Assembly: GCA_030390025.1 (NCBI GenBank)
Contig: JASTWF010000088.1
Coordinates: 1,178,001-1,242,000 of the forward strand
Length of the DNA stretch: 64,000 nt
Direction of reading: 5' to 3'
Source of the DNA: Squalus acanthias
Lineage: Eukaryota
Notes under the pieces: model-generated
Told to the model about the DNA's origin: nothing
The model's input: the letters and a program-made list of their open reading frames with translations, nothing else
Database searches by the model: none
Made by a program: the position numbers and the translations under genes
Shown here: positions 1-56,669 of the stretch, one piece after another
Numbering within the stretch: position 1 is the stretch's first letter
Layout of the letters: every line of letters starts with the position of its first letter

Positions 1-3000
1 CCAGGGGCTCTGTGTTGTGTTGGGGTTGATTTCCAGGGGCTCTGTGTTGTGTTGGGGTTGATTTCCAGGGGCTCTGTGTTGTGTTGTGTTGGGGTTGATT
101 TCCAGGGGCTCTGTGTTGTGTTGGGTTGATTTCCAGGGGCTCTGTGTTGTGTTGTGTTGGGTTGATTTCCAGGGGCTCTGTGTTGTGTTGGGGTGATTTC
201 CAGGGGCTCTGTGTTGTGTTGTGTTGGGGTTGATTTCCAGGGGCTCTGTGTTGTGTTGGGGTTGATTTCCAGGGGCTCTGTGTTGTGTTGGGGTTGATTT
301 CCAGGGGCTCTGTGTGTGTTGTGTTGGGGTTGATTTCCAGGGGCTCTGTGTTGTGTTGGGGGGTTGATTTCCAGGGGCTCTGTGTTGTGTTGGGGTTGAT
401 TTCCAGGGGCTCTGTGTTGTGTTGTGTTGGGGTTGATTTCCAGGGGCTCTGTGTTGTGTTGGGATTATTTCCAGGGGCTCTGTGTTGTGTTGTGTTGGGG
501 TTGATTTCCAGGGGCTCTGTGTTGTGTTGTGTTGGGGTTGATTTCCAGGGCTCTGTGTTGTGTTGTGTTGGGGTTGATTTCCAGGGGCTCTGTGTTGTGT
601 TGGGGTTGATTTCCAGGGGCTCTGTGTTGTGTTGTGTTGGGGTTGATTTCCAGGGGCTCTGTGTTGTGTTGTGTTGGGGTTGATTTCCAGGGGCTCTGTG
701 TTGTGTTGTGTTGGGGTTGATTTCCAGGGGCTCTGTGTTGTGTTGGGGTTGATTTCCAGGGGCTCTGTGTTGTGTTGGGGTTGATTTCCAGGGGCTCTGT
801 GTGTGTGGGGTTGATTTCCAGGGGCTCTGTGTTGGTGTTGGGGTTGATTTCCAGGGGCTCTGTGTTGTGTTGGGGTTGATTTCCAGGGGCTCTGTGTTGT
901 GTTGTGTTGGGTTGATTTCCAGGGGCTCTGTGTTGTGTTGGGGGTTGATTTCCAGGGGCTCTGTGTTGTGTTGGGGTTGATTTCCAGGGGCTCTGTGTTG
1001 TGTTGGGGTTGATTTCCAGGGGCTCTGTGTTGTGTTGTGTTGGGGTTGATTTCCAGGGGCTCTGTGTGTTGTGTTGGGGTTGATTTCCAGGGGCTCTGTG
1101 TTGTGTTGGGTTGATTTCCAGGGGCTCTGTGTTGTGTTGTGTTGGGTTGATTTCCAGGGGCTCTGTGTTGTGTTGGGGGTTGATTTCCAGGGGCTCTGTG
1201 TTGTGTTGGGGTTGATTTCCAGGGGCTCTGTGTTGTGTTGTGTTGGGTTGATTTCCAGGGGCTCTGTGTTGTGTTGTGTTGGGGTTGATTTCCAGGGGCT
1301 CTGTGTTGTGTTGGGGTTGATTTCCAGGGGCTCTGTGTTGTGTGTGTTGGGGTTGATTTCCAGGGGCTCTGTGTTGTGTTGTGTTGGGGTTGATTTCCAG
1401 GGGCTCTGTTGTTGTGTTGGGGTTGATTTCCAGGGGCTCTGTGTTGTGTTGGGGTTGATTTCCAGGGGCTCTGTGTTGTGTTGTGTTGGGGTTGATTTCC
1501 AGGGGCTCTGTGTTGTGTTGTGTTGGGTTTGATTTCCAGGGGCTCTGTGTTGTGTGTGTTGGGGTTGATTTCCAGGGGCTCTGTGTTGTGTTGGGGTTGA
1601 TTTCCAGGGGCTCTGTGTTGTGTTGTGTTGGGGTTTGATTTCCAGGGGCTCTGTGTTGTGTTTCAGGGCTCGTGTGTGTTGGGTTGATTTCCAGGGGCTC
1701 TGTGTTGTGTTGGGGTTGATTTCCAGGGGCTCTGTGTTGTGTTGTGGGGTTGATTTCCAGGGGCTCTGTGTGTGTTGTGTTGGGGTTGATTTCCAGGGGC
1801 TCTGTGTTGTGTTGGGGTTGATTTCCAGGGGCTCTGTGTTGTGTTGTGTTGGGGTTGATTTCCAGGGGCTCTGTGTTGTGTTGTGTTGGGGTTGATTTCC
1901 AGGGGCTCTGTGTTGTGTTGTTGGGGTTGATTTCCAGGGGCTCTGTGTTGTGTTGGGGTTGATTTCCAGGGGCTCTGTGTTGTGTTGTGTTGGGGTTGAT
2001 TTCCAGGGGCTCTGTGTTGTGTTGGGGTTGATTTCCAGGGGCTCTGTGTTGTTGTGTTGGGGGTTGATTTCCAGGGGCTCTGTGTTGTGTTGTGTTGGGG
2101 TTGATTTCCAGGGGCTCTGTGTTGTGTGTTGGGGTTGATTTCCAGGGGCTCTGTGTTGTGTTGGGTTGATTTCCAGGGGCTCTGTGTTGTGTTGGGGTTG
2201 ATTTCCAGGGGCTCTGTGTTGTGTTGTGTTGGGGTTGATTTCCAGGGGCTCTGTGTTGTGTTGTGTGGGTTGATTTCCAGGGGCTCTGTGTTGTGTTGTG
2301 TTGGGTTGATTTCCAGGGGCTCTGTGTTGTGTTTGGGGTTGATTTCCAGGGGCTCTGTGTTGTGTTGGGGTTGATTTCCAGGGCTCTGTGTTGTGTTGGG
2401 TTGATTTCCAGGGGCTCTGTGTTGTGTTGTGTGGGGTTGATTTCCAGGGGCTCTGTGTTGTGTTGGGGTTGATTTCCAGGGGCTCTGTGTTGTGTTGGAG
2501 GTTGATTTCCAGGGGCTCTGTGTTGTGTGGGGTTGATTTCCAGGGGCTCTGGTGTGTTGTGTTGGGGTTGATTTCCAGGGGCTCTGTGTTGTGTTGGGGT
2601 TGATTTCAGGGGCTCTGTGTTGTGTTGTGTTGGGGTTGATTTCCAGGGGCTCTGTGTTGTGTTTGTTGGGTTGATTTCCAGGGGCTCTGTGTGTTGTGTT
2701 GGGGTTGATTTCCAGGGGCTCTGTGTTGTGTTGCAGTTGATTTCCAGGGGCTCTGTGTTGTGTTGTGTTGGGTTGATTTCCAGGGCCTCTGTGTTGTGTT
2801 GGGGTTGATTTCCAGGGCTCTGTGTTGTGTTGGAGTTGATTTCCAGGGGCTCTGTGTTGTGTTGTGTTGGGGTTGATTTCCAGGGGCTCTGTGTTGTGTT
2901 GGGGTTGATTTCCAGGGGCTCTGTGTTGTGTTGTGTTGGGGTTGATTTCCAGGGGCTCTGTGTTGTGTTGGGGTTGATTTCCAGGGGCTCTGTGTGTTGT

Positions 3001-6000
3001 GTTGGGGTTGATTTCCAGGGGCTCTGTGTTGTGTTGGGGTTATTTCCAGGGGCTCTGTGTTGTGTTGTGTTGGGGTTGATTTCCAGGGGCTCTGTGTTGT
3101 GTTGGGGTTAATTTCCAGGGGCTCTGTGTTGTGTTGTGTTGGGGGTGATTTCCAGGGGCTCTGTGTTGTGTTGTGTTGGGGTTGATTTCCAGGGGCTCTG
3201 TGTTGTGTTGGGGTTGATTTCCAAGGGCTCTGTGTTGTGTTGGGGTTGATTTCCAGGGCTCTGTGTTGTGTTGGGGTTGATTTCCAGGGGCTCTGTGTTG
3301 TGTTGCGGTTGATTTCCAGGGGCTCTGTGTTGTGTTGTGTTGGGGTTGATTTCCAGGGGCTCTGTGTTGTGTTGGGGTTGATTTCCAGGGGCTCTGTGTT
3401 GTGTGTGTTGGGGTTGATTTCCAGGGGCTCTGTGTTGTGTTGGGGTTGATTTCCAGGGGCTCTGTGTTGTGTTGGGGTTGATTTCCAGGGGCTCTGTGTT
3501 GTGTTGTGTTGGGGTTGATTTCCAGGGGCTTTGTGTTGTGTTGGGGTTATTTCCAGGGGCTCTGTGTTGTGTTGTGTTGGGGTTGATTTCCAGGGGCTCT
3601 GTTGTGTTGTGTTGGGGTTGATTTCCAGGGGCTCTGTGTTGTGTGTTGGGGTTGATTTCAGGGGCTCTGTGTTGTGTTGGGGTTGATTTCCAGGGGCTCT
3701 GTGTTGTGTTGTGTTGGGTTGATTTCCAGGGGCTCTGTGTTGTGTTGTGTTGGGGTTGATTTCCAGGGCTCTGTGTTGTGTTGTGTTGGGGTTGATTTCC
3801 AGGGGCTCTGTGTTGTGTTGGGGTTGATTTCCAGGGGCTCTGTGTTGTGTTGTGGGTTGATTTCCAGGGGCTCTGTGTTGTGTTGGGGTTGATTTCCAGG
3901 GGCTCTGTGTTGTGTTTGGGGTTGATTTCCAGGGGCTCTGTGTTTTGTGTTGGGGTTGATTTCCAGGGGCTCTGTGTTGTGTTGTGTTGGTGTTGATTTC
4001 CAGGGGCTCTGTGTTGTGTTGGGGTTGATTTCCAGGGGCTCTGTGTTGTGTTGGGGTTGATTTCCAGGGGCTCTGTGTTGTGTTGGGGTTGATTTCCAGG
4101 GGCTCTGTGTTTGTGTGTGGGGTTGATTTCCAGGGGCTCTGTGTTGTGTTGGGGTTGATTTCCAGGGGCTCTGTGTTGTGTTGTGTTGGGGTTGATTTCC
4201 AGGGGCTCTGTGTTGTGTTGGGGTTGATTTCCAGGGGCTCTGTGTTGTGTTGTGTTGGGGTTGATTTCCAGGGCTCTGTGTTGTGTTGGGGTTGATTTCC
4301 AGGGGCTCTGTGTTGTGTTGTGTTGGGGTTGATTTCCAGGGGCTCTGTGTTGTGTTGTGTTGGGGTTGATTTCCAGGGGCTCTGTGTTGTGTTGGGGTTG
4401 ATTTCCAGGGGCTCTGTGTTGTGTTGTGTTGGGTTGATTTCCAGGGGCTCTGTGTTGTGTTGTGTTGGGGTTGATTTCCAGGGGCTCTGTGTTGTGTTGT
4501 GTTGGGGTTGATTTCCAGGGGCTCTGTGTTGTGTTGGGGTTGATTTCCAGGGGCTCTGTGTTGTGTTGTGTTGGGGTTGATTTCCAGGGGCTCTGTGTTG
4601 TGTTGTGTTGGGTTTATTTCCAGGGGCTCTGTGTTGTGTTGGGGTTGATTTCCAGGGGCTCTGTGTTGTGTTGGGGTTGATTTCCAGGGGCTCTGTGTTG
4701 TGTTGTGTTGGGGTTGATTTCCAGGGGCTCTGTGTTGTGTTGGGGTTGATTTCCAGGGGCTCTGTGTTGTGTTGGGGTTGATTTCCAGGGGCTCTGTGTT
4801 GTGTTGTGTTGGGGTTGATTTCCAGGGGCTCTGTGTTGTGTTGGGGTTGATTTCCAGGGGCTCTGTGTTGTGTTGTGTGGGGTTGATTTCCAGGGGCTCT
4901 GTGTTGTGTTGGGGGTTGATTTCCAGGGGCTCTGTGTGTTGTGTTGGGGTTGATTTCCAGGGGCTCTGTGTTGTGTTGGGGTTGATTTCCAGGGGCTCTG
5001 TGTTGTGTTGTGTTGGGGTTGATTTCCAGGGGCTCTGTGTTGTGTTGGTGGTTGATTTCCAGGGGCTCTGTGTTGTGTTGTGTTGGGGTTGATTTCCAGG
5101 GGCTCTGTGTTGTGTTGGGGTTGATTTCCAGGGGCTCTGTGTTGTGTTGTGTTGGGTTGATTTCCAGGGGCTCTGTGTTGTGTTGTGTTGGGGTTGATTT
5201 CCAGGGGCTCTGTGTTGTGTTGGGGTTGATTTCCAGGGGCTCTGTGTTGTGTTGTGTTGGGGTTGATTTCCAGGGGCTCTGTGTTGTGTTGGGGTGATTT
5301 CCAGGGGCTCTGTGTTGTGTTGTGTTGGGGTTGATTTCCAGGGGCTCTGTGTTGTGTTGGGGTTGATTTCCAGGGGCTCTGTGTTGTGTTGTGTTGGGGT
5401 TGATTTCCAGGGGCTCTGTGTTGTGTTGGGGTTGATTTCCAGGGGCTCTGTGTTGTGTTGGGGTTGATTTCCAGGGCTCTGTGTTGTGTTGGGGGTTGAT
5501 TTCCAGGGGCTCTGTGTTGTGTTGGGGTTGATTTCCAGGGGCTCTGTGTTTGTGTTGGGGTTGATTTCCAGGGGCTCTGTGTTGTGTTGGGTTGATTTCC
5601 AGGGGCTCTGTGTTGTGTTGTGTTGGGGTTGATTTCCAGGGGCTCTGTGTTGTGTTGTGTTGGGGTTGATTTCCAGGGGCTCTGTGTTGTGTTGGGGTTG
5701 ATTTCCAGGGGCTCTGTGTTGTGTTGTGTTGGGTTGATTTCCAGGGGCTCTGTGTTGTGTTGTGTTGGGGTTGATTTCCAGGGGCTCTGTGTTGTGTTGG
5801 GTTGATTTCCAGGGGCTCTGTGTTGTGTGTTGGGGTTGATTTCCAGGGGCTCTGTGTTGTGTTGTGTTGGGGTTGATTTCCAGGGGCTCTGTGTTGTGTT
5901 GGGGTTGATTTCCAGGGGCTCTGTGTTGTGTTGGGTTGATTTCCAGGGGCTCTGTGTTGTGTTGTGTTGGGGTTGATTTCCAGGGGCTCTGTGTTGTGTT

Positions 6001-9000
6001 GTTGGGGTTGATTTCCAGGGGCTCTGTGTTGTGTTGTGGGGTTGATTTCCAGGGGCTCTGTGTTGTGTTGGGGTTGATTTCCAGGGGCTCTGTGTTGTGT
6101 TGGGGTTGATTTCCAGGGGCTCTGTGTTGTGTTGGGGTTGATTTCCAGGGGCTCTGTGTTGTGTTGTGTTGGGGTTGATTTCCAGGGGCTCTGTGTTGTG
6201 TTGGGGTTGATTTCCAGGGGCTCTGTGTTGTGTTGTGTTGGGGTTGATTTCCAGGGGCTCTGTGTTGTGTTGGGGTTGATTTCCAGGGGCTCTGTGTTGT
6301 GTTGGGGTTGATTTCCAGGGGCTCTGTGTTGTGTTGGGGTTGATTTCCAGGGGCTCTGTGTTGTGTTGTGTTGGGGTTGATTTCCAGGGGCTCTGTGTTG
6401 TGTTGGGGTTGATTTCCAGGGGCTCTGTGTTGTGTTGTGTTGGGGTTGATTTCCAGGGGCTCTGTGTTGTGTTGGGGTTGATTTCCAGGGGCTCTGTGTT
6501 GTGTTGGGGTTGATTTCCAGGGGCTCTGTGTTGTGTTGTGTTGGGGTTGATTTCCAGGGGCTCTGTGTTGTGTTGGGGTTGATTTCCAGGGGCTCTGTGT
6601 TGTGTTGTGTTGGGGTTGATTTCCAGGGGCTCTGTGTTGTGTTGGGGTTGATTTCAGGGGCTCTGTGTTGTGTTGTGTTGGGGTTGATTTCCAGGGGCTC
6701 TGTGTTGTGTGTGTTGGGGTTGATTTCCAGGGGCTCTGTGTTGTGTTGGGGTGATTTCCAGGGGCTCTGTGTTGTGTTGTGTTGGGGTTTGATTTCCAGG
6801 GGCTCTGTGTTGTGTTGAGGTTGATTTCCAGGGGCTCTGTGTTGTGTTGGGGTTGATTTCCAGGGGCTCTGTGTTGTGTTTGTGTTGTGTCTGTGTGGGG
6901 GTTATTTCCAGGGGCTCTGTGTTGTGTTGTGTTGGGGTTGATTTCCAGGGGCCTCTGTGTTGTGTTGGGGTTGATTTCCAGGGCTCTGTGTTGTGTTGGA
7001 GGTTGATTTCCAGGGGCTCTTGTGTTGTGTTGGGGTTGATTTCCAGGGGCTCTGTGTTGTGTTTGTTGGGGTTGATTCCAGGGGGCTCTGTGTTGTGTGT
7101 GTTGGGTTGAATTTCCAGGGCTCTGTGTTGTGTTGGGGTTTATTCCAGGGGCTCTGTGTTGTTGTTGTGTTGTTGGGGTTGATTCCAGGGGCTCTGTGTG
7201 TTGTGTTGTGTTGGGGTTGATTTCCAGGGGCTCTGTGTTGTGTTGTGTTGTGTTGGGTTGATTTCCAGGGCTCTGTGTGTGTGTGTTGGGGTTGATTTCC
7301 AGGGGCTCTGTGTTGTGTTGTGGGGTTGATTTCCAGGGGCTCTGTGTTGTGTTGTGTTGGGGTTGATTTCCAGGGGCTCTGTGTTGTGTTGTGTTGATTT
7401 CCAGGGGCTCTGTGTTGTGTGTTGTGTTGGGGTTTATTTCCAGGGGCTCTGTGTTGTGTTGTGTTGGGGTTGATTTCCAGGGGCTCTGTGTTGTGTTGTG
7501 TTTGGGGTTGATTTCCAGGGGCTCTGTGTTGTGTTGGGGTTGATTTCCAGGGTCTCTGTGTTGTGTTGGGGTTGATTTCCAGGGGCTCTGTGTTGTGTTG
7601 GGGTTGATTTCCAGGGCTCTGTGTTGTGTTGTGTTGGGGTTGATTTCCAGGGGCTCTCTGTGTTGTGTTGGGGTTGATTTCCAGGGGCTCTGTGTTGTGT
7701 TGTGTTGGGGTTGATTTCCAGGGGCTCTGTGTTGTGTTGTGGTTGATTTCCAGGGGCTCTGTGTTGTGTTGTGTTGGGGTTGATTTCCAGGGGCTCTGTG
7801 TGTGTTGTGTTGGGGTTGATTTCCAGGGGCTCTGTGTTGTGTTGTGTTGGGGTTGATTTCCAGGGGCTCTGTGTTGTGTTGGGGTTGATTTCCAGGGGCT
7901 CTGTTGTGTTGTGTTGGGGTTGATTTCCAGGGGCTCTGTGTTGTGTCTGTGGGTTGATTTCCAGGGCTCTGTGTTGTGTTGGGGTTGATTTCCAGGGGCT
8001 CTGTGTTGTGTTGGGGTTGATTTCCAGGGGCTCTGTGTTGTGTTGTGTTGGGGTTGATTTCCAGGGGCTCTGTGTTGTGTTGGGGTTGATTTCCAGGGGC
8101 TCTGTGTTGTGTTGGGGTTGATTTCCAGGGGCTCTGTGTTGTGTTGTGTTGGGTTGATTTCCAGGGGCTCTGTGTTGTGTTGTGTTGGGTTGATTTCCAG
8201 GGGCTCTGTGTTGTGTTGGGGTTGATTTCCAGGGGCTCTGTGTTGTGTTGGGGTTGATTTCCAGGGGCTCTGTGTTGTGTTGGGGTTGATTTCCAGGGGC
8301 TCTGTGTTGTGTTGTGTGGGGTTGATTTCCAGGGGCTCTGTGTTGTGTTGTGTGGGGTTGATTTCCAGGGGCTCTGTGTTGTGTTGGGGTTGATTTCCAG
8401 GGGCTCTGTGTTGTGTTGTGTGGGGTTGATTTCCAGGGGCTCTGTGTTGTTGTGTTGGGGTTGATTTCCAGGGGCTCTGTGTTGTGTTGTGTTGGGGTTG
8501 ATTTCCAGGGGCTCTGTGTTGTGTTGGGGTTGATTTCCAGGGGCTCTGTGTTGTGTTTGGGTTGATTTCCAGGGGCTCTGTGTTGTGTTGGGGTTGATTT
8601 CCAGGGGCTCTGTGTTGTGTTGTGTTGGGGTTGATTTCCAGGGGCTCTGTGTTGTGTTTGTGTTGGGTTGATTTCCAGGGGCTCTGTGTTGTGTTGGGGT
8701 TGATTTCCAGGGGCTCTGTGTTGTGTTGGTGGTTGATTTCCAGGGGCTCTGTGTTGTGTTGGGGTTGATTTCCAGGGGCTCTGTGTTGTGTTGTGTTGGG
8801 GTTGATTTCCAGGGGCTCTGTGTTGTGTTGGGGTTGATTTCCAGGGGCTCTGTGTTGTGTTGTGTTGGGGTTGATTTCCAGGGGCTCTGTGTTGTGTTGG
8901 GGTTGATTTCCAGGGGCTCTGTGTTGTGTTGTGTTGGGGTTGATTTCCAGGGGCTCTGTGTGTGTTGTGTTGGGGTTGATTTCCAGGGGCTCTGTGTTGT

Positions 9001-42000: not shown

Positions 42001-45000
42001 TTGTGTTGATGTTGATTTCCAGGGGCTCTGTGTTGTGTTGTGTTGGGGTTGATTTCCAGGGGCTCTGTGTTGTGTTGTGTTGGGGTTGATTTCCAGGGGC
42101 TCTGTGTTGTGTTGTGTTGGGGTTGATTTCCAGGGGCTCTGTGTTGTGTTGTGTTGGGGTTGATTTCCAGGCTCTGTGTTGTGTTGTGTTGGGGTTGATT
42201 TCCAGGGGCTCTGTGTTGTGTTGGGGTTGATTTCCAGGGGCTCTGTGTTGTGTTGGGGTTGATTTCCAGGGGCTCTGTGTTGTGTTGTGTTGGGGTTGAT
42301 TTCCAGGGGCTCTCTGTGTTGTGTTGGGGTTGATTTCCAGGCTCTGTGTTGTGTTGTGTTGGGGTTGATTTCCAGGGGCTCCGTGTTGTGTCGGGGTTGA
42401 TTTCCAGGGGCTCTGTGTTGTGTTGTGTTGGGGTTGATTTCCAGGGGCTCTGTGTTGTGTTGTGTTGGGGTTGATTTCCATGGGGCTCTGTGTTGTGTTG
42501 TGTTGGGGTTTATTTCCAGGGGCTCTGTGTTGTGTTGGGGTTGATTTCCAGGGGCTCTGTGTTGTGTTGTGTTGGGGTTGATTTCCAGGGGCTCTGTGTT
42601 GTGTTGTGTTGGGGTTGATTTCCAGGGGCTCTGTGTTGTGTTGTGTTGGGGTTGATCTCCAGGGGCTCTGTGTTGTGTTGGGGTTGATTTCCAGGGGCTC
42701 TGTGTTGTGTTGTGTTGAGGTTGATTTCCAGGGGCTCTGTGTTGTGTTGGTGTTGATTTCCAGGGGCTCTGTGTTGTGTTGTGTTGGGGTTGATTTCCAG
42801 GGGCTCTGTGTTGTGTTGTGTTGGGGTTGATTTCCAGGGGCTCTGTGTTGTGTTGTGTTGGGGTTGATTTCCAGGGGCTCTGTGTTGTGTTGTGTTGGGA
42901 TTGATTTCCAGGGGCTCTGTGTTGTGTTGTGTTGGGGTTGATTTCCAGGGGCTCTGTGTTGTGTTGTGTTGGGGTTGATTTCCAGGGGCTCTGTGTTGTG
43001 TTGGGGTTGATTTCCAGGGGCTCTGTGTTGTGTTGTGTTGGGGTTGATTTCCAGGGGCTCTCTGTGTTGTGTTGGGGTTGATTTCCAGGGGCTCTGTGTT
43101 GTGTTGGGGTTGATTTCCAGGCTCTGTGTTGTGTTGTGTTGGGGTTGATTTCCAGGGGCTCTGTGTTGCGTTGTGTTGGGGTTGATTTCCAGGGGCTCTG
43201 TGTTGTGTTGTGTTGGGGTTGATTTCCAGGGGCTCTGTGTTGTGTTGTGTTGGTGTTGATTTCCAGGGGCTCTGTGTTGTGTTGTGTTGGGATTTATTTC
43301 CAGGGGCTCTGTGTTGTGTTGTGTTGGGGTTGATTTCCAGGGGCTCTGTGTTGTGTTGGGGTTGATTTCCAGGGGCTCTGTGTTGTGTTGGGGTTTATTT
43401 CCAGGGGCTCTGTGTTGTGTTGTGTTGTGTTGGGGTTGATTTCCAGGGGCTCTGTGTTGTGTTGTGTTGTGTTGGGGTTGATTTCCAGGGGCTCTGTGTT
43501 GTGTTGTGTTGTGTTGGGGTTGATTTCCAGGGGCTCTGTGTTGTGTTGTGTTGGGGTTGATTTCCAGGGGCTCTGTGTTGTGTTGTGTTGGGGTTGATTT
43601 CCAGGGGCTCTGTGTTGTGTTGTGTTGGGGTTGATTTCCAGGGGCTCTGTGTTGTGTTGTGTTTATTTCCAGGGGCTCTGTGTTGTGTTGTGTTGTGTTG
43701 GGGTTTATTTCCAGGGGCTCTGTGTTGTGTTGTGTTGGGGTTGATTTCCAGGTGCTCTGTGTTGTGTTGTGTTGGGGTTGATTTCCAGGGGCTCTGTGTT
43801 GTGTTGGGGTTGATTTCCAGGGTCTCTGTGTTGTGTTGGGGTTGATTTCCAGGGTCTCCGTGTTGTGTTGGGGTTGATTTCCAGGGGCTCTGTGTTGTGT
43901 TGTGTTGGGGTTGATTTCCAGGGGCTCTCTGTGTTGTGTTGGGGTTGATTTCCAGGGGCTCTGTGTTGTGTTGTGTCGGGGTTGATTTCCAGGGGCTCTG
44001 TGTTGTGTTGTGTTGGGGTTGATTTCCAGGGGCTCTGTGTTGTGTTGGGGTTGATTTCCAGGGGCTCTGTGTTGTGTTGTGTTGGGGTTGATTTCCAGGG
44101 GCTCTGTGTTGTGTTGGGGTTGATTTCCAGGGGCTCTATGTTGTGTTGTGTTGGGGTTGATTTCCAGGGGCTCTGTGTTGTGTCGGTGTTGATTTCCAGG
44201 GGCTCTGTGTTGTGTTGGGGTTGATTTCCAGGGGCTCTGTGTTGTGTTGTGTTGGGGTTGATTTCCAGGGGCTCTGTGTTGTGTTGGGGTTGATTTCCAG
44301 GGGCTCTGTGTTGTGTTGGGGTTGATTTCCAGGGGCTCTGTGTTGTGTTGTGTTGGGGTTGATTTCCAGGGGCTCTGTGTTGTGTTGTGTTTATTTCCAG
44401 GGGCTCTGTGTTGTGTTGTGTTGTGTTGGGGTTTATTTCCAGGGGCTCTGTGTTGTGTTGTGTTGGGGTTGATTTCCAGGTGCTCTGTGTTGTGTTGTGT
44501 TGGGGTTGATTTCCAGGGGCTCTGTGTTGTGTTGGGGTTGATTTCCAGGGTCTCTGTGTTGTGTTGGGGTTGATTTCCAGGGTCTCCGTGTTGTGTTGGG
44601 GTTGATTTCCAGGGGCTCTGTGTTGTGTTGTGTTGGGGTTGATTTCCAGGGGCTCTCTGTGTTGTGTTGGGGTTGATTTCCAGGGGCTCTGTGTTGTGTT
44701 GTGTCGGGGTTGATTTCCAGGGGCTCTGTGTTGTGTTGTGTTGGGGTTGATTTCCAGGGGCTCTGTGTTGTGTTGGGGTTGATTTCCAGGGGCTCTGTGT
44801 TGTGTTGTGTTGGGGTTGATTTCCAGGGGCTCTGTGTTGTGTTGGGGTTGATTTCCAGGGGCTCTATGTTGTGTTGTGTTGGGGTTGATTTCCAGGGGCT
44901 CTGTGTTGTGTCGGTGTTGATTTCCAGGGGCTCTGTGTTGTGTTGGGGTTGATTTCCAGGGGCTCTGTGTTGTGTTGTGTTGGGGTTGATTTCCAGGGGC

Positions 45001-48000
45001 TCTGTGTTGTGTTGTGTTGGGGTTGATTTCCAGGGGCTCTGTGTTGTGTTGGGGTTGATTTCCAGGGGCTCTGTGTTGTGTTGGGGTTGATTTCCAGGGG
45101 CTCTGTGTTGTGTTGTGTTGGGGTTGATTTCCAGGGGCTCGGTGTTGTGTTGAGTTGGGGTTGATTTCCAGGGGCTCTGTGTTGTGTTGTGTTGGGGTTG
45201 ATTTCCAGGGGCTCTGTGTTGTGTTGGGGTTGATTTCCAGGGGCTCTGTTGTGTTGGGGGTTATTTCCAGGGGCTCTGTGTTGTGTTGTGTTGGGGTTGA
45301 TTTCCAGGGGCTCTGTGTTGTGTTGTGTTGGGGTTGATTTCCAGGGGCTCTGTGTTGTGTTGGGGTTGATTTCCAGGGGCTCTGTGTTGTGTTGGGGTTG
45401 ATTTCCAGGGGCTCTGTGTTGTGTTGGGGTTGATTTCCAGGGGCTCTGTGTTGTGTTGTGTTGGGGTTGATTTCCAGGGGCTCTGTGTTGTGTTGGGGTT
45501 GATTTCCAGGGGCTCTGTGTTGTGTTGTGTTGGGGGTTGATTTCCAGGGGCTCTGTGTTGTGTTGTGTTGGGGTTGATTTCCAGGGGCTCTGTGTTGTGT
45601 TGGGGTTGATTTCCAGGGGCTCTGTGTTGTGTTGTGTTGGGGTTGATTTCCAGGGGCTCTGTGTTGTGTTGGGGTTGATTTCCAGGGGCTCTGTGTTGTG
45701 TTGGGGTTGATTTCCAGGGGCTCTGTGTTGTGTTGGGGTTGATTTCCAGGGGCTCTGTGTTGTGTTGTGTTGGGGTTGATTTCCAGGGGCTCTGTGTTGT
45801 GTTGGGGTTGATTTCCAGGGGCTCTGTGTTGTGTTGTGTTGGGGGTTGATTTCCAGGGGCTCTGTGTTGTGTTGTGTTGGGGTTGATTTCCAGGGGCTCT
45901 GTGTTGTGTTGGGGTTGATTTCCAGGGGCTCTGTGTTGTGTTGTGTTGGGGTTGATTTCCAGGGGCTCTGTGTTGTGTTGTGTTGGGGTTGATTTCCAGG
46001 GGCTCTGTGTTGTGTTGGGGTTGAGTTCCAGGGGCTCTGTGTTGTGTTGTGTTGGGGTTGATTTCCAGGGGCTCTGTGTTGTGTTGGGGTTGATTTCCAG
46101 GGGCTCTGTGTTGTGTTGTGTTGGGGTTGATTTCCAGGGGCTCTGTGTTGTGTTGTGTTGTGTTGGGGTTGATTTCCAGGGCTCTGTGTTGTGTTGGGGT
46201 TGATTTCCAGGGGCTCTGTGTTGTGTTGTGTTGGGATTTATTTCCAGGGGCTCTGTGTTGTGTTGCAGTTGATTTCCAGGGGCTCTGTGTTGTGTTGTGT
46301 TGGGGTTGATTTCCAGGGGCTCTGTGTTGTGTTGTGTTGGGGTTGATTTCCAGGGGCTCTGTGTTGTGTTGTGTTTGGGTTGATTTCCAGGGGCTCTGTG
46401 TTGTGTTGTGTTGGGGTTGATTTCCAGGGGCTCTGTGTTGTGTTGTGTCGGGGTTGATTTCCAGGGGCTCTGTGTTGTGTTGGGGTTGATTTCCAGGGGC
46501 TCTGTGTTGTGTTGTGTTGGGGTTGATTTCCAGGGGCTCTGTGTTGTTTTGGGGGTTGATTTCCAGGGGCTCTGTGTTGTGTTGTGTTGGGGTTGATTTC
46601 CAGGGGCTCGGTGTTGTGTTGGGGTTGATTTCCAGGGGCTCTGTGTTGTGTTGGGGTTGATTTCCAAGGGCTCTGTGTTGTGTTGTGTTGGGGTTGATTT
46701 CCAGGGGCTCTGTGTTGTGTTGTGTTGGGATTTATTTCCAGGGGCTCTGTGTTGTGTTGTGTTGGGGTTGATTTCCAGGGGCTCTGTGTTGTGTTGGGGT
46801 TGATTTCCAGGGGCTCTGTGTTGTGTTGGGGTTTATTTCCAGGGGCTCTGTGTTGTGTTGTGTTGGGGTTGATTTCCAGGGGCTCTGTGTTGTGTTGTGT
46901 TGGGGTTGATTTCCAGGGGCTCTGTGTTGTGTTGTGTTTGGGTTGATTTCCAGGGGCTCTGTGTTGTGTTGTGTTGGGGTTGATTTCCAGGGGCTCTGTG
47001 TTGTGTTGTGTCGGGGTTGATTTCCAGGGGCTCTGTGTTGTGTTGGGGTTGATTTCCAGGGGCTCTGTGTTGTGTTGTGTTGGGGTTGATTTCCAGGGGC
47101 TCTGTGTTGTTTTGGGGGTTGATTTCCAGGGGCTCTGTGTTGTGTTGTGTTGGGGTTGATTTCCAGGGGCTCGGTGTTGTGTTGGGGTTGATTTCCAGGG
47201 GCTCTGTGTTGTGTTGGGGTTGATTTCCAAGGGCTCTGTGTTGTGTTGTGTTGGGGTTGATTTCCAGGGGCTCTGTGTTGTGTTGTGTTGGGATTTATTT
47301 CCAGGGGCTCTGTGTTGTGTTGTGTTGGGGTTGATTTCCAGGGGCTCTGTGTTGTGTTGGGGTTGATTTCCAGGGGCTCTGTGTTGTGTTGGGGTTTATT
47401 TCCAGGGGCTCTGTGTTGTGTTGTGTTGTGTTGGGGTTGATTTCCAGGGGCTCTGTGTTGTGTTGTGTTGTGTTGGGGTTGATTTCCAGGGGCTCTGTGT
47501 TGTGTTGTGTTGTGTTGGGGTTGATTTCCAGGGGCTCTGTGTTGTGTTGTGTTGGGGTTGATTTCCAGGGGCTCTGTGTTGTGTTGTGTTTATTTCCAGG
47601 GGCTCTGTGTTGTGTTGTGTTGTGTTGGGGTTTATTTCCAGGGGCTCTGTGTTGTGTTGTGTTGGGGTTGATTTCCAGGTGCTCTGTGTTGTGTTGTGTT
47701 GGGGTTGATTTCCAGGGGCTCTGTGTTGTGTTGGGGTTGATTTCCAGGGTCTCTGAGTTGTGTTGGGGTTGATTTCCAGGGTCTCCGTGTTGTGTTGGGG
47801 TTGATTTCCAGGGGCTCTGTGTTGTGTTGTGTTGGGGTTGATTTCCAGGGGCTCTCTGTGTTGTGTTGGGGTTGATTTCCAGGGGCTCTGTGTTGTGTTG
47901 TGTCGGGGTTGATTTCCAGGGGCTCTGTGTTGTGTTGTGTTGGGGTTGATTTCCAGGGGCTCTGTGTTGTGTTGGGGTTGATTTCCAGGGGCTCTGTGTT

Positions 48001-51000
48001 GTGTTGTGTTGGGGTTGATTTCCAGGGGCTCTGTGTTGTGTTGGGGTTGATTTCCAGGGGCTCTATCTTGTGTTGTGTTGGGGTTGATTTCCAGGGGCTC
48101 TGTGTTGTGTCGGTGTTGATTTCCAGGGGCTCTGTGTTGTGTTGGGGTTGATTTCCAGGGGCTCTGTGTTGTGTTGTGTTGGGGTTGATTTCCAGGGGCT
48201 CTGTGTTGTGTTGTGTTGGGGTTGATTTCCAGGGGCTCTGTGTTGTGTTGGGGTTGATTTCCAGGGGCTCTGTGTTGTGTTGGGGTTGATTTCCAGGGGC
48301 TCTGTGTTGTGTTGTGTTGGGGTTGATTTCCAGGGGCTCGGTGTTGTGTTGTGTTGGGGTTGATTTCCAGGGGCTCTGTGTTGTGTTGTGTTGGGGTTGA
48401 TTTCCAGGGGCTCTGTGTTGTGTTGGGGTTGATTTCCAGGGGCTCTGTTGTGTTGGGGGTTATTTCCAGGGGCTCTGTGTTGTGTTGTGTTGGGGTTGAT
48501 TTCCAGGGGCTCTGTGTTGTGTTGTGTTGGGGTTGATTTCCAGGGGCTCTGTGTTGTGTTGGGATTTATTTCCAGGGCTCTGTGTTGTGTTGCAGTTGAT
48601 TTCCAGGGGCTCTGTGTTGTGTTGTGTTGGGGTTGATTTCCAGGGGCTCTGTGTTGTGTTGTGTTGGGGTTGATTTCCAGGGGCTCTGTGTTGTGTTGTG
48701 TTGGGGTTGATTTCCAGGGGCTCTGTGTTGTGTTGGGGTTGATTTCCAGGGGCTCTGTGTTGTGTTGGGGTTGATTTCCAGGGGCTCTGTGTTGTGTTGT
48801 GTTGGGGTTGATTTCCAGGGGCTCTGTGTTGTGTTGGGGTTGATTTCCAGGGGCTCTGTGTTGTGTTGTGTTGGGGGTTGATTTCCAGGGGCTCTGTGTT
48901 GTGTTGTGTTGGGGTTGATTTCCAGGGGCTCTGTGTTGTGTTGGGGTTGATTTCCAGGGGCTCTGTGTTGTGTTGTGTTGGGGTTGATTTCCAGGGGCTC
49001 TGTGTTGTGTTGTGTTGGGGTTGATTTCCAGGGGCTCTGTGTTGTGTTGGGGTTGATTTCCAGGGGCTCTGTGATGTGTTGTGTTGGGGTTGATTTCCAA
49101 GGGCTCTGTGTTGTGTTGGGGTTGATTTCCAGGGGCTCTATGTTGTGTTGTGTTGGGGTTGATTTCCAGGGGCTCTGTGTTGTGTTGTGTTGGGGTTGAT
49201 TTCCAGGGGCTCTGTGTTGTGTTGTGTTGGGGTTGATTTCCAGGGGCTCTGTGTTGTGTTGGGCTTGATTTCCAGGGGCTCTGTGTTGTGTTGGGGTTGA
49301 TTTCCAGGGGCTCTGTGTTGTGTTTTGTTGGGGTTGATTTCCAGGGGCTCTGTGTTGTGTTGTGTTGGGGTTGATTTCCAGGGGCTCTGTGTTGTGTTGT
49401 GTCGGGGTTGATTTCCAGGGGCTCTGGGTTGTGTTGTTTTGGGGGTTATTTCCAGGGGCTCTGTGTTGTGTTGGGGTTGATTTCCAGGGTCTCTGTGTTG
49501 TGTTGGGGTTGATTTTCAGGGGCTCTGTGTTGTGTTGTGTTGGGCTTGATTTCCAGGGGCTCTGTGTTGTGTTGGGGTTGATTTCCAGGGGCTCTGTGTT
49601 GTGTTGGGGGTGATTTCCAGGGGCTCTGTGTTGTGTTGGGGTTGATTTCCAGGGGCTCTGTGTTGTGTTGTGTTGGGGTTGATTTCCAGGGGCTCTGTGT
49701 TGTGTTGTGTTGGGGGTTATTTCCAGGGGCTCTGTGTTGTGTTGGGCTTGATTTCCAGGGGCTCTGTGTTGTGTTGGGGTTGCTTTCCAGGGGCTCTGTG
49801 TTGTGTTGTGTTGGGGTTGATTTCCAGGGGCTCTGTGTTGTGTTGTGTTGGGGTTTATTTCCAGTGGCTCTGTGTTGTGTTGGGGTTGATTTCCAGGAGC
49901 TCTGTGTTGTGTCGGGGTTGATTTCCAGGGGCCCTGTGTTGTGTTGTGTTGGGGTTGATTTCCAGGGGCTCTGTGTTGTGTTGGGGTTGATTTCCAGGGG
50001 CTCTGTGTTGTGTTGTGTTGGGGTTGATTTCCAGGGTCTCTGTGTTGTGTTGGGGTTGATTTCCAGGGTCTCTGTGTTGTGTTGGGGTTGATTTCCAGGG
50101 GCTCTGTGTTGTGTTGTGTTGGGGTTGATTTCCAGGGGCTCTGTGTTGTGTTGTGTTGGGGTTGATTTCCAGGGGCTCTGTGTTGTGTTGTGTTGGGGTT
50201 GATCTCCAGGGGCTCTGTGTTGTGTTGGGGTTGATTTCCAGGGGCTCTGTGTTGTGTTGTGTTGAGGTTGATTTCCAGGGGCTCTGTGTTGTGTTGGTGT
50301 TGATTTCCAGGGGCTCTGTGTTGTGTTGGGGTTGATTTCCAGGGGCTCTGTGTTGTGTTGTGTTGGGGTTGATTTCCAGGGGCTCTGTGTTGTGTTGTGT
50401 TGGGGTTGATTTCCAGGGGCTCTGTGTTGTGTTGTGTTGGGATTGATTTCCAGGGGCTCTGTGTTGTGTTGTGTTGGGGTTGATTTCCAGGGGCTCTGTG
50501 TTGTGTTGTGTTGGGGTTGATTTCCAGGGGCTCTGTGTTGTGTTGGGGTTGATTTCCAGGGGCTCTGTGTTGTGTTGTGTTGGGGTTGATTTCCAGGGGC
50601 TCTCTGTGTTGTGTTGGGGTTGATTTCCAGGGGCTCTGTGTTGTGTTGGGGTTGATTTCCAGGCTCTGTGTTGTGTTGTGTTGGGGTTGATTTCCAGGGG
50701 CTCTGTGTTGCGTTGTGTTGGGGTTGATTTCCAGGGGCTCTGTGTTGTGTTGTGTTGGGGTTGATTTCCAGGGGCTCTGTGTTGTGTTGTGTTGGTGTTG
50801 ATTTCCAGGGGCTCTGTGTTGTGTTGTGTTGATGTTGATTTCCAGGGGCTCTGTGTTGTGTTGTGTTGGGGTTGATTTCCAGGGGCTCTGTGTTGTGTTG
50901 TGTTGGGGTTGATTTCCAGGGGCTCTGTGTTGTGTTGTGTTGGGGTTGATTTCCAGGGGCTCTGTGTTGTGTTGTGTTGGGGTTGATTTCCAGGCTCTGT

Positions 51001-52850
51001 GTTGTGTTGTGTTGGGGTTGATTTCCAGGGGCTCTGTGTTGTGTTGGGGTTGATTTCCAGGGGCTCTGTGTTGTGTTGGGGTTGATTTCCAGGGGCTCTG
51101 TGTTGTGTTGTGTTGGGGTTGATTTCCAGGGGCTCTCTGTGTTGTGTTGGGGTTGATTTCCAGGCTCTGTGTTGTGTTGTGTTGGGGTTGATTTCCAGGG
51201 GCTCCGTGTTGTGTCGGGGTTGATTTCCAGGGGCTCTGTGTTGTGTTGTGTTGGGGTTGATTTCCAGGGGCTCTGTGTTGTGTTGTGTTGGGGTTGATTT
51301 CCATGGGGCTCTGTGTTGTGTTGTGTTGGGGTTTATTTCCAGGGGCTCTGTGTTGTGTTGGGGTTGATTTCCAGGGGCTCTGTGTTGTGTTGTGTTGGGG
51401 TTGATTTCCAGGGGCTCTGTGTTGTGTTGTGTTGGGGTTGATTTCCAGGGGCTCTGTGTTGTGTTGTGTTGGGGTTGATCTCCAGGGGCTCTGTGTTGTG
51501 TTGGGGTTGATTTCCAGGGGCTCTGTGTTGTGTTGTGTTGAGGTTGATTTCCAGGGGCTCTGTGTTGTGTTGGTGTTGATTTCCAGGGGCTCTGTGTTGT
51601 GTTGTGTTGGGGTTGATTTCCAGGGGCTCTGTGTTGTGTTGTGTTGGGGTTGATTTCCAGGGGCTCTGTGTTGTGTTGTGTTGGGGTTGATTTCCAGGGG
51701 CTCTGTGTTGTGTTGTGTTGGGATTGATTTCCAGGGGCTCTGTGTTGTGTTGTGTTGGGGTTGATTTCCAGGGGCTCTGTGTTGTGTTGTGTTGGGGTTG
51801 ATTTCCAGGGGCTCTGTGTTGTGTTGGGGTTGATTTCCAGGGGCTCTGTGTTGTGTTGTGTTGGGGTTGATTTCCAGGGGCTCTCTGTGTTGTGTTGGGG
51901 TTGATTTCCAGGGGCTCTGTGTTGTGTTGGGGTTGATTTCCAGGCTCTGTGTTGTGTTGTGTTGGGGTTGATTTCCAGGGGCTCTGTGTTGCGTTGTGTT
52001 GGGGTTGATTTCCAGGGGCTCTGTGTTGTGTTGTGTTGGGGTTGATTTCCAGGGGCTCTGTGTTGTGTTGTGTTGGTGTTGATTTCCAGGGGCTCTGTGT
52101 TGTGTTGTGTTGATGTTGATTTCCAGGGCCTCTGTGTTGTGTTGTGTTGGGGTTGATTTCCAGGGGCTCTGTGTTGTGTTGTGTTGGGGTTTATTTCCAG
52201 GGGCTCTGTGTTGTGTTGTGTTGGGGTTGATTTCCAGGGGCTCTGTGTTGTGTTGTGTTGGGGTTGATTTCCAGGGGCTCTGTGTTGTGTTGTGTTGGGG
52301 TTGATTTCCAGGGGCTCTGTGTTGTGTTGTGTTGGGGTTGATTTCCAGGGGCTCTGTGTTGTGTTGTGTTGGGGTTGATTTCCAGGCTCTGTGTTGTGTT
52401 GTGTTGGGGTTGATTTCCAGGGGCTCTGTGTTGTGTTGGGGTTGATTTCCAGGGGCTCTGTGTTGTGTTGGGGTTGATTTCCAGGGGCTCTGTGTTGTGT
52501 TGTGTTGGGGTTGATTTCCAGGGGCTCTCTGTGTTGTGTTGGGGTTGATTTCCAGGGGCTCTGTGTTGTGTTGGGGTTGATTTCCAGGCTCTGTGTTGTG
52601 TTGTGTTGGGGTTGATTTCCAGGGGCTCCGTGTTGTGTCGGGGTTGATTTCCAGGGGCTCTGTGTTGTGTTGTGTTGGGGTTGATTTCCAGGGGCTCTGT
52701 GTTGTGTTGTGTTGGGGTTGATTTCCATGGGGCTCTGTGTTGTGTTGTGTTGGGGTTTATTTCCAGGGGCTCTGTGTTGTGTTGTGTTGGGGTTGATTTC
52801 CAGGGGCTCTGTGTTGTGTTGTGTTGGGGTTGATTTCCAGGGGTTCTGTG
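1..52850 (+). repeat. Giant tandem minisatellite/satellite array, unit 32 bp (GTTGGGGTTGATTTCCAGGGGCTCTGTGTTGT) with 37- and 42-bp variants from extra GTTGT; about 1,500 copies; open at the left window edge
   Basis: The unit is read directly throughout. The 32-mer has 13 G, 13 T, 4 C and 2 A (81% G+T). The last recognisable unit ends at ~52843-52850 (TTTCCAGGGGTTCTGTG) and then decays into GT-rich intron sequence. Copy number is estimated as length divided by ~34.5 bp. Confidence 0.98.
35770..52110 (+). repeat. Higher-order tandem duplication inside the array: block A (~35770-43290) and block B (~43290-52110)
   Basis: Rare unit variants recur in identical order at fixed offsets. GTTGAGTTGGGG occurs at 36888 and 45153 (offset 8265) and CCAGGTGCTC at 38854 and 47677 (offset 8823). 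Identical ORF-track translations occur at 40151/48975, 40538/49362, 40809/49633 and 41329/50153 (offset 8824). Block B contains extra internal 728-bp (43750/44478) and 563-bp (46408/46971) duplications. Confidence 0.85.
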
Positions 52851-52914
52851 TGTGGATTTGGGGTTTTTGTGTGTGTATATGTGTGTGTGTGGTTGGTGGT
52901 TTGGGGTTCATATC

Positions 52915-52936
52915 CTAATACCTATCTTTGTTTCAG
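52915..52936 (+). promoter_or_regulatory. Branch point, polypyrimidine tract and 3' splice acceptor of the alpha1 exon
   Basis: CTAAT (YTNAY) at 52915-52919 is followed by ACCTATCTTTGTTTCAG, with the AG at 52935-52936 directly before GC TCT CAC TCT CTC (G-S-H-S-L). Confidence 0.75.
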
Positions 52937-53194
52937 GCTCTCACTCTCTCCGGTATTTCTACACCTCGATGACCCCCATGCACGGCCTGCTGGAATTTGT
53001 GGTGGTCGGTTATGTGGACGACGCTCCGTTTGTTCAGTATGACAGTGACCGGAAGCGGATGATCCCGCGGCAGCGGTGGATGGAGAGCGAGGCCCCTGAG
53101 TACTGGGAGCAGCAGACATGGGCCACGCAGCGATGGGAGGAGAGGGGCAAGAATGATCTTGACATTCTCATGTCCCGGACCAACCAGACGGACG
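52937..53194 (+). CDS. MHC class I alpha1 domain exon (exon 2), 258 bp
   Basis: Boundaries are tttcAG|GC and GAC G|GTGAGT. Translation: (G)SHSLRYFYTSMTPMHGLLEFVVVGYVDDAPFVQYDSDRKRMIPRQRWMESEAPEYWEQQTWATQRWEERGKNDLDILMSRTNQTD. Conserved Y7, Y59, R84 and the N86 glycan site NQT (HLA numbering, by-eye alignment). Confidence 0.96.
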
Positions 53195-53427
53195 GTGAGT
53201 CCTCGCCCTCCCTGTGTCTTTCTCACCGCAGCCCCCATCTGTTTATTCCCTCCCCCACCCACCCACCGGAAATCAGGCAGTCAAAATAGCACCTGCATTT
53301 GCCCACACTGATCTCTCTACCCCGCGGGTCACGGTCTTTACCTGGTATTCTGAGCCGCCGAGAGGGGCGCTCGCTGGAAACCGCAGTGGGGTATGTGGTG
53401 GGGCGTGGTGCAGTCCTTTCCGAGGAG

Positions 53428-53896
53428 CCCTTTAAATACACTGATTGGGGTCCGGGGGCCCCTTTAAATACATTGATCGGGGTGCGGGGGGCCCTTTAAC
53501 AACACTGATCGAGGCCCGGAGGGGCCCTTTAAATACACTGATCGAGGTCCGGGGGGTCCCTTTAAATACATTGATCGGGGTGTGGGGCGCCCTTTAACAA
53601 CACTGATCGGGGTGCGGGGGTCCCTTTAAATACACTGATCAGGGTCCGGGGGGTCCCTTTAAATACACTGATCGAGGTCCAGAGGGTCCCTTTAAATACA
53701 CTGATCGGGGTCCGGGGGGGGTGGGGGGTCCTTTAAATACACTGATCGGGGTCTGGGGGGTCCCTTTAAATACACTGATCGGGGTCCGGTGGGTCCCTTT
53801 AAATACACTGATCGGGGTCCAGGGGGGGGTGGGGGGGTCCTTTAAATACACTGATCGGGGTCCGGTGGGTCCCTTTTAAATACACTGATTGGGGTC
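53428..53896 (+). repeat. Intron-2 minisatellite, ~14 copies of ~32-33 bp (CCCTTTAAATACACTGATCGGGGTCCGGGGGGT)
   Basis: The TTTAAATACACTGAT core recurs at ~53431, 53463, 53495, 53528, 53561, 53593, 53625, 53658, 53691, 53732, 53765, 53798, 53841 and 53875. Confidence 0.93.
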
Positions 53897-53995
53897 AAAA
53901 GTAGCCGGAACTGCCCATCGTCCCCGCAGATTTCCCATCCTACCCTACCTCCCCCTCCCTCATGGCCTTCGCCCGTCTCCGGGGGGGTCTAATTT

Positions 53996-56663: not shown

Positions 56664-56669
56664 ATGGCG

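What the first reader, a model, noticed from the sequence alone, without database searches (positions are those of the whole stretch)
1..52936. A >52-kb satellite-scale array sits directly in front of an MHC class I alpha1 exon (probably filling intron 1)
Seen: the array runs without interruption to ~90 bp from an intact phase-1 acceptor, and no leader exon or promoter is present in 52.9 kb. Established: class I genes have a separate leader exon spliced in phase 1 to alpha1, usually across a much shorter intron. Inference: either intron 1 has expanded to >53 kb of nearly pure repeat, or the expansion separated or destroyed the 5' end. Either would be a route to silencing or pseudogenising class I paralogs and creating large haplotype length polymorphism.
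Basis: partly seen in the sequence, partly recalled or inferred. Interest (0 to 1): 0.75.

Follow-up and report, generated by a model that had tools for sequence, protein, structure and literature searches.

The report
Giant minisatellite before shark MHC exon
About 1,500 copies of a 32/37-base repeat, apparently grown on the spot, sit just in front of the first peptide-binding exon of a shark immune gene that also carries a frameshift; this is a very large but known kind of intronic repeat, with no evidence that it switched the gene off.

Summary
Confirmed: an unbroken array of 1,518 units (37-bp form commoner than 32-bp) fills 1-52,851 and ends 85 nt before an intact phase-1 acceptor of an MHC class I alpha1 exon; no leader exon is in the window. 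The gene is elasmobranch (alpha3 65/66 identical to a Squalus protein). A decayed copy of the unit runs into the putative branch point, which favours local origin over a misjoin. The proximal 24 kb grew by kilobase block duplications (8.8 kb, 4838/4841 identical). The distal 28 kb shows an indel-noise gradient, so the true length is uncertain. Both other complete introns also hold tandem repeats, so this is the extreme of a repeat-prone gene. The alpha3 exon is 2 nt short with a premature stop, so the gene looks null regardless of the array; the array is almost CpG-free. Silencing by the array is unsupported, and 'intron 1' is inferred, not shown. Human CACNA1C has a 30-bp intronic array of up to 61 kb built the same way. 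One lead: the unit resembles a splice acceptor (about 1,500 copies), and the intron-3 repeat carries about 100 consensus donors.

The parts
1..28500 (+). Distal zone of the array: near-random mix of 32- and 37-bp units, few substitutions, many 1-bp homopolymer deletions that increase leftwards (probable sequencing/consensus noise). Runs off the window.
   Evidence: Indel events 14.7, 11.7 and 7.9 per kb for 1-10, 10-20 and 20-28.5 kb; substitutions 0.4-2.4 per kb; longest repeated unit-type run 22 vs shuffle max 26
28501..52851 (+). Proximal zone of the array: variant-rich units in nested block duplications (offsets 728, 1281, 1392, about 3000, 4494, 8265, 8823 bp)
   Evidence: Exact matches up to 1,667 bp; 38,450-43,289 vs +8,823: 4838 of 4841 columns identical; repeated unit-type run 145 vs shuffle max 21
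52852..52915 (+). GT-rich spacer ending in a decayed copy of the unit
   Evidence: Best match to the unit among 4,444 non-array windows; 52,885-52,915 reached by 20 of 1,000 shuffles, but the whole spacer by 639 of 1,000
52915..52936 (+). Branch-point-like CTAAT (52,915-19), pyrimidine tract and acceptor AG of the alpha1 exon
   Evidence: yTnAy at -22; 12 of 17 pyrimidines; the yTnAy consensus is recalled
52937..53194 (+). MHC class I alpha1 exon, open, phase 1/1
52937..54110 (.). CpG-island-like stretch (GC 0.56-0.61, CpG o/e 0.60-0.81) over alpha1 and the start of intron 2
53428..53896 (+). 33-bp minisatellite, about 12-14 copies, in intron 2
58484..58756 (+). MHC class I alpha2 exon, open; its G/T-rich acceptor resembles the big array's unit
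58784..62111 (+). 25-bp minisatellite, about 132 copies, starting 28 nt after the alpha2 donor; intron 3 holds 102 GGTGAGT donor-consensus sites (count includes none upstream of the intron start)
62120..62294 (+). 47-bp repeat, 3.7 copies, ending 42 nt before the alpha3 exon
62336..62609 (+). MHC class I alpha3 exon, 274 nt (276 expected); frameshift near 62,539 and stop ending at 62,544, 65 nt before the exon end

Best explanation
This is a locally born minisatellite that expanded to tens of kilobases, most likely inside intron 1 of a squaliform-shark MHC class I gene. Shown: the unit family, its continuity, a decayed copy abutting the branch-point-like motif, kilobase block duplications, and unrelated minisatellites in the gene's other introns. 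Inferred: a GT-rich stretch near the 3' end of intron 1 was duplicated; slippage of an internal 5-mer made the 32/37/42-bp forms; unequal exchange or template switching then copied blocks of 0.7-8.8 kb, with the more homogeneous and probably younger part lying away from the exon. Inferred: the leader lies further left and the array would be spliced out, because it contains no consensus donor, so its acceptor-like sites cannot define exons, and the true acceptor is the better one and lies nearest the alpha1 donor. The gene as assembled is a recent null through the alpha3 frameshift (predicted nonsense-mediated decay); the array is most likely a passenger tolerated in a redundant or dead copy, not the cause.
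For: Continuity: 1,518 of 1,518 units fit one family; 11 of 18 clean substitution variants seen in the distal zone recur in the proximal zone. Local origin: the top match to the unit in 4,444 non-array windows is the stretch touching the branch-point motif. Growth by duplication. Repeat-prone gene: four unrelated arrays; 98% of intron 3 is tandem repeat. Splicing: 0 GTRAG in the array; true acceptor 12/17 pyrimidines vs 9-10/17 for the last 15 array AGs. Null allele: alpha3 274 nt vs 276, stop 65 nt before the junction. Recent loss: only 3 (alpha1) and 2 (alpha2) departures at >=90%-conserved columns, against 0-7 in 35 shark and ray homologs. Precedent: CACNA1C intronic 30-bp VNTR, alleles up to 61 kb, grown by kilobase duplications (PMC12452837, passages). 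Shark introns are elongated and tandem repeats are abundant in some regions.
Against: The leader exon is not in the window, so intron status is inferred. The decayed-copy match is modest (20 of 1,000 shuffles, on a segment chosen after seeing the scan; whole spacer 639 of 1,000). The distal zone may be inflated or distorted by assembly, and the 99.94% duplication could be an assembler's false duplication. The frameshift sits in a GAGA context and could be a consensus error. The order of events (frameshift vs expansion) cannot be read from one haplotype. No genomic DNA of paralogs or other haplotypes was available.
Confidence: 0.6

Rival explanations
1. The array itself inactivated the gene (elongation block, R-loops on the G-rich sense strand, heterochromatin or mis-splicing into decoy acceptors), and the frameshift followed.
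For: GC skew +0.55 on the sense strand throughout. 1,491 TTTC(C)AG|G acceptor-like sites; 14 of the last 15 would introduce a stop if used. Exons show little decay, so loss is recent, as are the duplications. Intronic VNTRs can alter splicing, e.g. ABCA7 (PMC13196383, passages).
Against: CpG o/e 0.02 in the array; no G-quadruplex motif with loops <=7 nt; intact acceptor; CpG-rich alpha1 region. Genes with megabase satellite introns are expressed (PMC6508621, abstract). In F7, repeat-borne duplicate donors stay silent (PMC1557585, abstract). No expression data.
Confidence: 0.12
2. The 5' end is gone: the array replaced or was juxtaposed to a leaderless gene fragment, so it is intergenic, not intronic.
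For: No leader in 52.9 kb; the gene is frameshifted anyway; elasmobranch MHC regions carry extra class Ia-like and partial copies (PMC10751288, passages and supplement rows).
Against: The decayed unit copy merges into intact intron-end signals, which fits growth within the intron; exons are barely decayed.
Confidence: 0.12
3. Assembly artefact: the array is real but much shorter, or is mis-joined to the gene.
For: 1-bp homopolymer deletions rise from 10 in the proximal 12.8 kb to 77 in the first 10 kb, as expected where read support thins; abrupt change in variant density near 28.5 kb; 8.8-kb copies differ at only 3 of 4,841 columns. 9 of 36 named elasmobranch hits with a contig length lie on contigs under 0.4 Mb, suggesting these loci assemble badly.
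Against: No N gap; gradual decay at the junction; distal and proximal zones share 11 of 18 variants; nested duplications at many offsets look biological. A misjoin at the exon seems unlikely (about 0.04); inflated length is the likelier form.
Confidence: 0.12
4. A genome-wide or centromeric satellite that invaded or abuts the locus.
For: Size is satellite-like; could not be tested genome-wide.
Against: Unit length, internal 5-mer variation, strong strand skew and the in-place decayed copy are minisatellite traits; no 13-mer of the canonical array occurs in the remaining 11 kb.
Confidence: 0.04

Closest known systems
Human CACNA1C intron-3 VNTR (TRACT); PMC12452837 passages, PMC13196383 passages
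   Same: About 30-bp unit, intronic, arose from a single local copy, alleles up to 61 kb, expansion by kilobase tandem duplications, variant units as markers.
   Different: It lies deep in a very large intron of a working gene and has reported enhancer activity; here the array ends 85 nt from an acceptor of an immune gene with a frameshift, and neither polymorphism nor function is shown.
Human F7 intron-7 37-bp VNTR; PMC1557585 abstract
   Same: Minisatellite that multiplies splice-site-like sequence beside a true site; the pseudo-sites stay silent. A close match to the intron-3 array here.
   Different: F7 has several exact copies of a donor spanning the exon boundary; here there are about 100 donor-consensus sites and about 1,500 acceptor-like sites that are not exact copies of the adjacent true sites.
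ABCA7 intron-18 25-bp VNTR; PMC13196383 table
   Different: The effect was measured there; nothing is measured here.
Drosophila kl-3/kl-5 satellite-filled giant introns; PMC6508621 abstract
   Same: Intron made almost purely of tandem repeat.
   Different: Megabase simple satellites in expressed Y-linked genes with a dedicated expression programme.
Squalus acanthias MHC class I Q8HWH7 and sharks with the same alpha3 type (Pristiophorus, Heptranchias, Heterodontus, Scyliorhinus)
   Same: alpha3 N-part 65/66, alpha2 72/90, alpha1 54/84 identical to Q8HWH7; sister to it in the alpha3 tree, 99/94 support.
   Different: Divergent alpha1/alpha2, a one-residue deletion in alpha1, and a frameshift in alpha3; a paralog or distant allele.
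Large alpha1-alpha2 introns in teleost classical class I; PMC6523485 passages
   Same: Long introns in fish class I genes (>10 kb in trout) that aid exon-shuffling recombination.
   Different: Intron 2, not intron 1; not described as pure tandem repeat in the passages seen.

Membership tests
Giant intronic minisatellite (VNTR) | Head-to-tail units of about 10-100 bp | tested here: met
   32/37/42-bp units, 1,518 copies
Giant intronic minisatellite (VNTR) | Variant units and internal block duplications | tested here: met
Giant intronic minisatellite (VNTR) | Lies between two exons of one gene | tested here: inconclusive
   Downstream acceptor present; leader outside the window or absent
Giant intronic minisatellite (VNTR) | Copy number varies between haplotypes | not testable with these tools
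   One haplotype only; no vertebrate genome collection
Giant intronic minisatellite (VNTR) | Locus-specific, local origin | tested here: inconclusive
   Decayed copy at the intron end, 20 of 1,000 shuffles; genome-wide copy number untested
Genome-wide/centromeric satellite DNA | High copy number at several loci or at centromeres | not testable with these tools
   Only the window is available; absent from its other 11 kb
MHC class I heavy-chain gene | alpha1, alpha2 (MHC_I) and C1-set alpha3 exons in order, phase 1 | tested here: met
   Pfam PF00129 and PF07654 above cut-off; best PDB hit 6LUP, E 1e-33, listed as nurse shark; boundaries
MHC class I heavy-chain gene | Leader, transmembrane and cytoplasmic exons | tested here: inconclusive
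   Not in the window, which ends 1.4 kb after alpha3
Functional classical class Ia (UAA) | Intact reading frame | tested here: not met
   alpha3 frameshift and stop as assembled; may be a consensus error
Functional classical class Ia (UAA) | Nine conserved peptide-anchoring residues (numbering recalled: Y7, Y59, R84, F/Y123, T143, K146, W147, Y159, Y171) | tested here: inconclusive
   7 of 9 read off the alignment; T143 is S, and position 123 is L (also L in Q8HWH7)
Functional classical class Ia (UAA) | Linkage to TAP/PSMB, polymorphism, ubiquitous expression | not testable with these tools
   No flanking genes in the window
Shark nonclassical UBA lineage | Clusters with reference UBA sequences; multicopy cluster between c4 and rxrb | tested here: inconclusive
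   No hit was labelled UBA; definition from PMC10751288 section 9

The most novel reading that the evidence does not exclude
The gene's introns are filled by minisatellites that mimic splice sites in the matching polarity: about 1,500 acceptor-like units upstream of the alpha1 acceptor (resembling the gene's own alpha2 acceptor, AG in register) and about 100 consensus donors just downstream of the alpha2 donor. Array length would then act as a fast-mutating, heritable dial on class I splicing and expression, and as a route by which shark class I paralogs are retired.
Probability: 0.07. Interest if true: 0.72.

Novelty: new member of a known kind. Interest (0 to 1): 0.37.

Why it matters
If real at this length, it is a very large minisatellite (comparable to the longest CACNA1C alleles) pressed against an exon of an antigen-presenting gene, and I found no report of one in a shark MHC gene. 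It offers a concrete reason why elasmobranch class I genes are often fragmented or leaderless in assemblies, a hypervariable haplotype marker, and a natural test of how the spliceosome ignores about 1,500 acceptor-like and about 100 donor-like decoys. Its weight is reduced because the gene looks dead for another reason and the mechanism of growth is known.

Tried and rejected
1) Substitute leader from intron sequence: an ATG at 52,879 is in frame with alpha1 and gives a 19-residue hydrophobic N-terminus (best 8-residue hydropathy 2.74, within the 2.4-3.9 range of 28 real leaders), but 662 of 2,000 dinucleotide shuffles of the spacer give such an ATG, and none of the 7 hits was seen to carry such an N-terminus (one aligned; others read); rejected as chance. 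2) Leader hidden in the array: 17 ATG-started frames, no donor consensus, no homology. 3) Unit as a copy of the alpha1 junction minus branch point and pyrimidine tract: 162 of 2,000 shuffles reach the score; rejected. 4) Methylation-driven silencing of the array: 58 CpG in 52,851 nt. 5) Short-loop G-quadruplexes: 0 in the big array, 5 in intron 3. 6) Rfam on 50,000-64,000: 0 matches. 8) PMC10468316 passages had no text on introns, satellites or MHC. 9) The LINE-like ORFs were not confirmed with Pfam (the one attempt had wrong coordinates). No structure prediction was run; it does not bear on the question.

Full report
Observation. Tandem Repeats Finder reports one array at 11-52,851, period 37, 1,518 copies, and base composition is flat over it (GC 0.51-0.52, GC skew about +0.55). 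Splitting at landmarks gives 1,518 units of 26-49 bp, all of one family: 677 of the 32-bp class, 810 of the 37-bp class and 31 longer, differing by copies of an internal 5-mer. There is no N and no unique insert. The array stops 85 nt before an acceptor at 52,935-36 that has a branch-point-like CTAAT at -22 and 12 of 17 pyrimidines (consensus recalled). The array contains 0 GTRAG donors, and neither 46 short leader peptides (output cut at 5,000 characters) nor 7 longer N-termini from homologs find an exon-like match in the window.

The gene. Three exons follow: alpha1 52,937-53,194, alpha2 58,484-58,756 and alpha3 62,336-62,609, all phase 1, matching Pfam MHC_I and C1-set. The best solved structure is 6LUP, a nurse shark class I, and the best single-gene database hits are shark and ray class I proteins. 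Against Squalus acanthias Q8HWH7 the identities are 54/84, 72/90, 65/66 and 18/23 for alpha1, alpha2 and the two parts of alpha3, and the alpha3 tree pairs them at 99/94 (40-42 rows per tree, one unnamed-source row left out). The host is therefore probably Squalus or a close squaliform relative. I could not separate classical UAA, Ia-like and UBA; 7 of 9 recalled anchor residues are kept. The alpha3 exon is 274 nt where 276 is expected; the frame breaks near 62,539 and a stop ends at 62,544, 65 nt before the junction, which by the general 50-55 nt rule (recalled) predicts nonsense-mediated decay. The break is in a GAGA context, so a consensus error is possible. Otherwise the exons are little decayed: 3 and 2 departures at highly conserved columns against 0-7 in 35 homologs.

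Anatomy and growth of the array. From 28.5 kb to the end, substitutions run at 11-12 per kb and fall in repeated blocks: exact matches up to 1,667 bp, offsets from 0.3 to 16 kb, and a block at +8,823 identical at 4,838 of 4,841 columns; the longest repeated run of unit types is 145 against a maximum of 21 in 200 shuffles. Left of 28.5 kb substitutions are rare (0.4-2.4 per kb), the order of unit types is close to random (longest run 22, shuffle maximum 26; repeated 16-mers 51, shuffle maximum 37), and indel events climb from 3.5 to 14.7 per kb towards position 1, mostly single-base homopolymer deletions. I read this as a more homogeneous, probably younger zone overlaid with sequencing noise, as near a contig end; its length is not secure. 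The zones are one lineage: 11 of 18 clean substitution variants seen distally recur proximally.

Local origin. Among 4,444 forty-base windows of the non-array DNA, both strands, the best match to the unit is the stretch ending at 52,915, touching the branch-point motif (20 of 1,000 shuffles for that segment, chosen after the scan; 639 of 1,000 for the whole spacer). The array thus fades into the intron's own 3' signals, which argues against a misjoin and against an inserted satellite, though only moderately. The other introns behave alike: a 33-bp repeat in intron 2, and a 25-bp repeat (132 copies) plus a 47-bp repeat that together fill 98% of intron 3. One of 84 proteins scanned, a Heterodontus gene model with the same alpha3 type, starts with a translated 18-residue tandem repeat before its leader, hinting that tandem arrays flank related shark genes.

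Splice-site mimicry. The second-best match to the unit is the gene's own alpha2 acceptor, with the AG in register (9 of 1,000 and 12 of 2,000 shuffles; ungapped 15 of 24, tied for first with three non-splice sites among 1,097 AGs; the alpha1 and alpha3 acceptors rank 476 and 216). With three acceptors tested this is suggestive only. It does show that an acceptor as pyrimidine-poor as the unit (8/17 vs 9/17) is used by this gene's exon structure. The array holds 1,491 such sites. Of the last 15, 14 would lead to a stop and the last (exon start 52,841) would add 32 codons in frame. Intron 3 holds 102 GGTGAGT sites and 255 GTRAG. Because the big array has no donor, exon definition (established knowledge) should ignore nearly all of its sites, and in human F7 repeat-borne duplicate donors are functional yet silent (PMC1557585, abstract).

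Does the array silence the gene? Nothing here shows it. The array has 58 CpG in 52,851 nt (o/e 0.02) and no short-loop G-quadruplex motif. The alpha1 exon and the next 0.9 kb keep CpG o/e 0.60-0.81, against 0.11-0.28 further into intron 2; this fits a 5' CpG island and so a promoter that was once close, i.e. a recent expansion, but alpha2 and alpha3 exons are also CpG-rich (0.57, 0.80), so the inference is weak. The G-rich sense strand could form R-loops (inference). The frameshift is a sufficient, independent lesion, and the order of events is unknown.

Comparison with what is known. The human CACNA1C intronic VNTR has a 30-bp unit, arose from a single copy, reaches 13-61 kb in one allele class and grows by kilobase duplications (PMC12452837, passages): the same kind of object at the same scale. 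ABCA7 shows that such repeats can affect splicing (PMC13196383, passages and table); Drosophila kl-3/kl-5 show that satellite-filled introns are compatible with expression (PMC6508621, abstract). Shark genomes have elongated introns and regions dominated by tandem repeats (bioRxiv 10.1101/2025.06.08.657570, passages, supplements not seen; PMC10620051, passages). Annotated elasmobranch class I models span 6-257 kb in the 20 of 45 'MHC-Ib' rows I saw, 33-69 kb for three Ia or Ia-like rows, 6-12 kb for two partial Ia rows and 603 kb for one (PMC10751288 supplement); some models may be chimeric, and intron-1 lengths are not given. Lineage background comes from PMC10751288 (section 9 and passages) and PMC12562908 (passages); long class I introns in teleosts from PMC6523485 (passages). 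Three searches (24, 11 and 2 papers, judged from listings, one opened) found no report of a tandem array in a shark class I intron; subscription immunology papers are largely outside the library.

Verdict. The best reading (0.6) is a locally expanded giant minisatellite, probably intronic, riding on a repeat-prone and apparently frameshifted shark class I gene. It is a new member of a known kind; interest 0.37. The boldest reading left open, splice-site-mimicking arrays as a dial on class I expression, has probability about 0.07. Genome-wide copy number, polymorphism, the leader exon and expression stayed unchecked because no vertebrate genome or transcript data are available with these tools.

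Noticed in passing
window 62,336-62,609: alpha3 exon is 2 nt short, with a premature stop at 62,542-44; the gene is a null as assembled.
   Followed up: yes
window 58,784-62,111: 3.3-kb purine-rich 25-bp minisatellite (GC skew up to +0.86) starting 28 nt after the alpha2 donor, with about 100 consensus donor sites; GA-rich arrays are also prone to assembly error.
   Followed up: partly
window 58,454-58,486: The alpha2 acceptor is unusually G/T-rich (8 of 17 pyrimidines) and resembles the big array's unit.
   Followed up: partly
window 54,110-58,210: Several nested fragments of reverse-transcriptase-like ORFs in both orientations fill intron 2 (e.g. 55,633-56,562 minus, 56,650-57,420 plus). The label CR1-type LINE is recalled, not tested.
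   Followed up: no
window 52,879-52,936: In-frame ATG gives a signal-peptide-like 19-residue extension from intron sequence; chance level by shuffling (662 of 2,000).
   Followed up: yes
window 52,937-54,110: CpG-island-like stretch beginning sharply at the alpha1 exon.
   Followed up: partly
window 52,937-53,194: alpha1 has a one-residue deletion and unusual helix residues (W where homologs have Q; P to L in the first loop), suggesting an altered groove or relaxed selection.
   Followed up: partly
window 53,991-54,085: A short direct repeat of about 30 bp (two copies) just before the first LINE-like fragment, seen by eye.
   Followed up: no
protein P0023 (Heterodontus francisci gene model): The N-terminus is a translated 18-residue tandem repeat before the leader, pointing to a tandem array 5' of a related class I gene.
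   Followed up: no
proteins P0005-P0013 (ray gene models): Ray class I-like models of 476-1,391 residues whose bit scores (227-599) exceed a single alpha2 match, suggesting several alpha1/alpha2 modules; real multi-domain genes or fused models, not examined.
   Followed up: no
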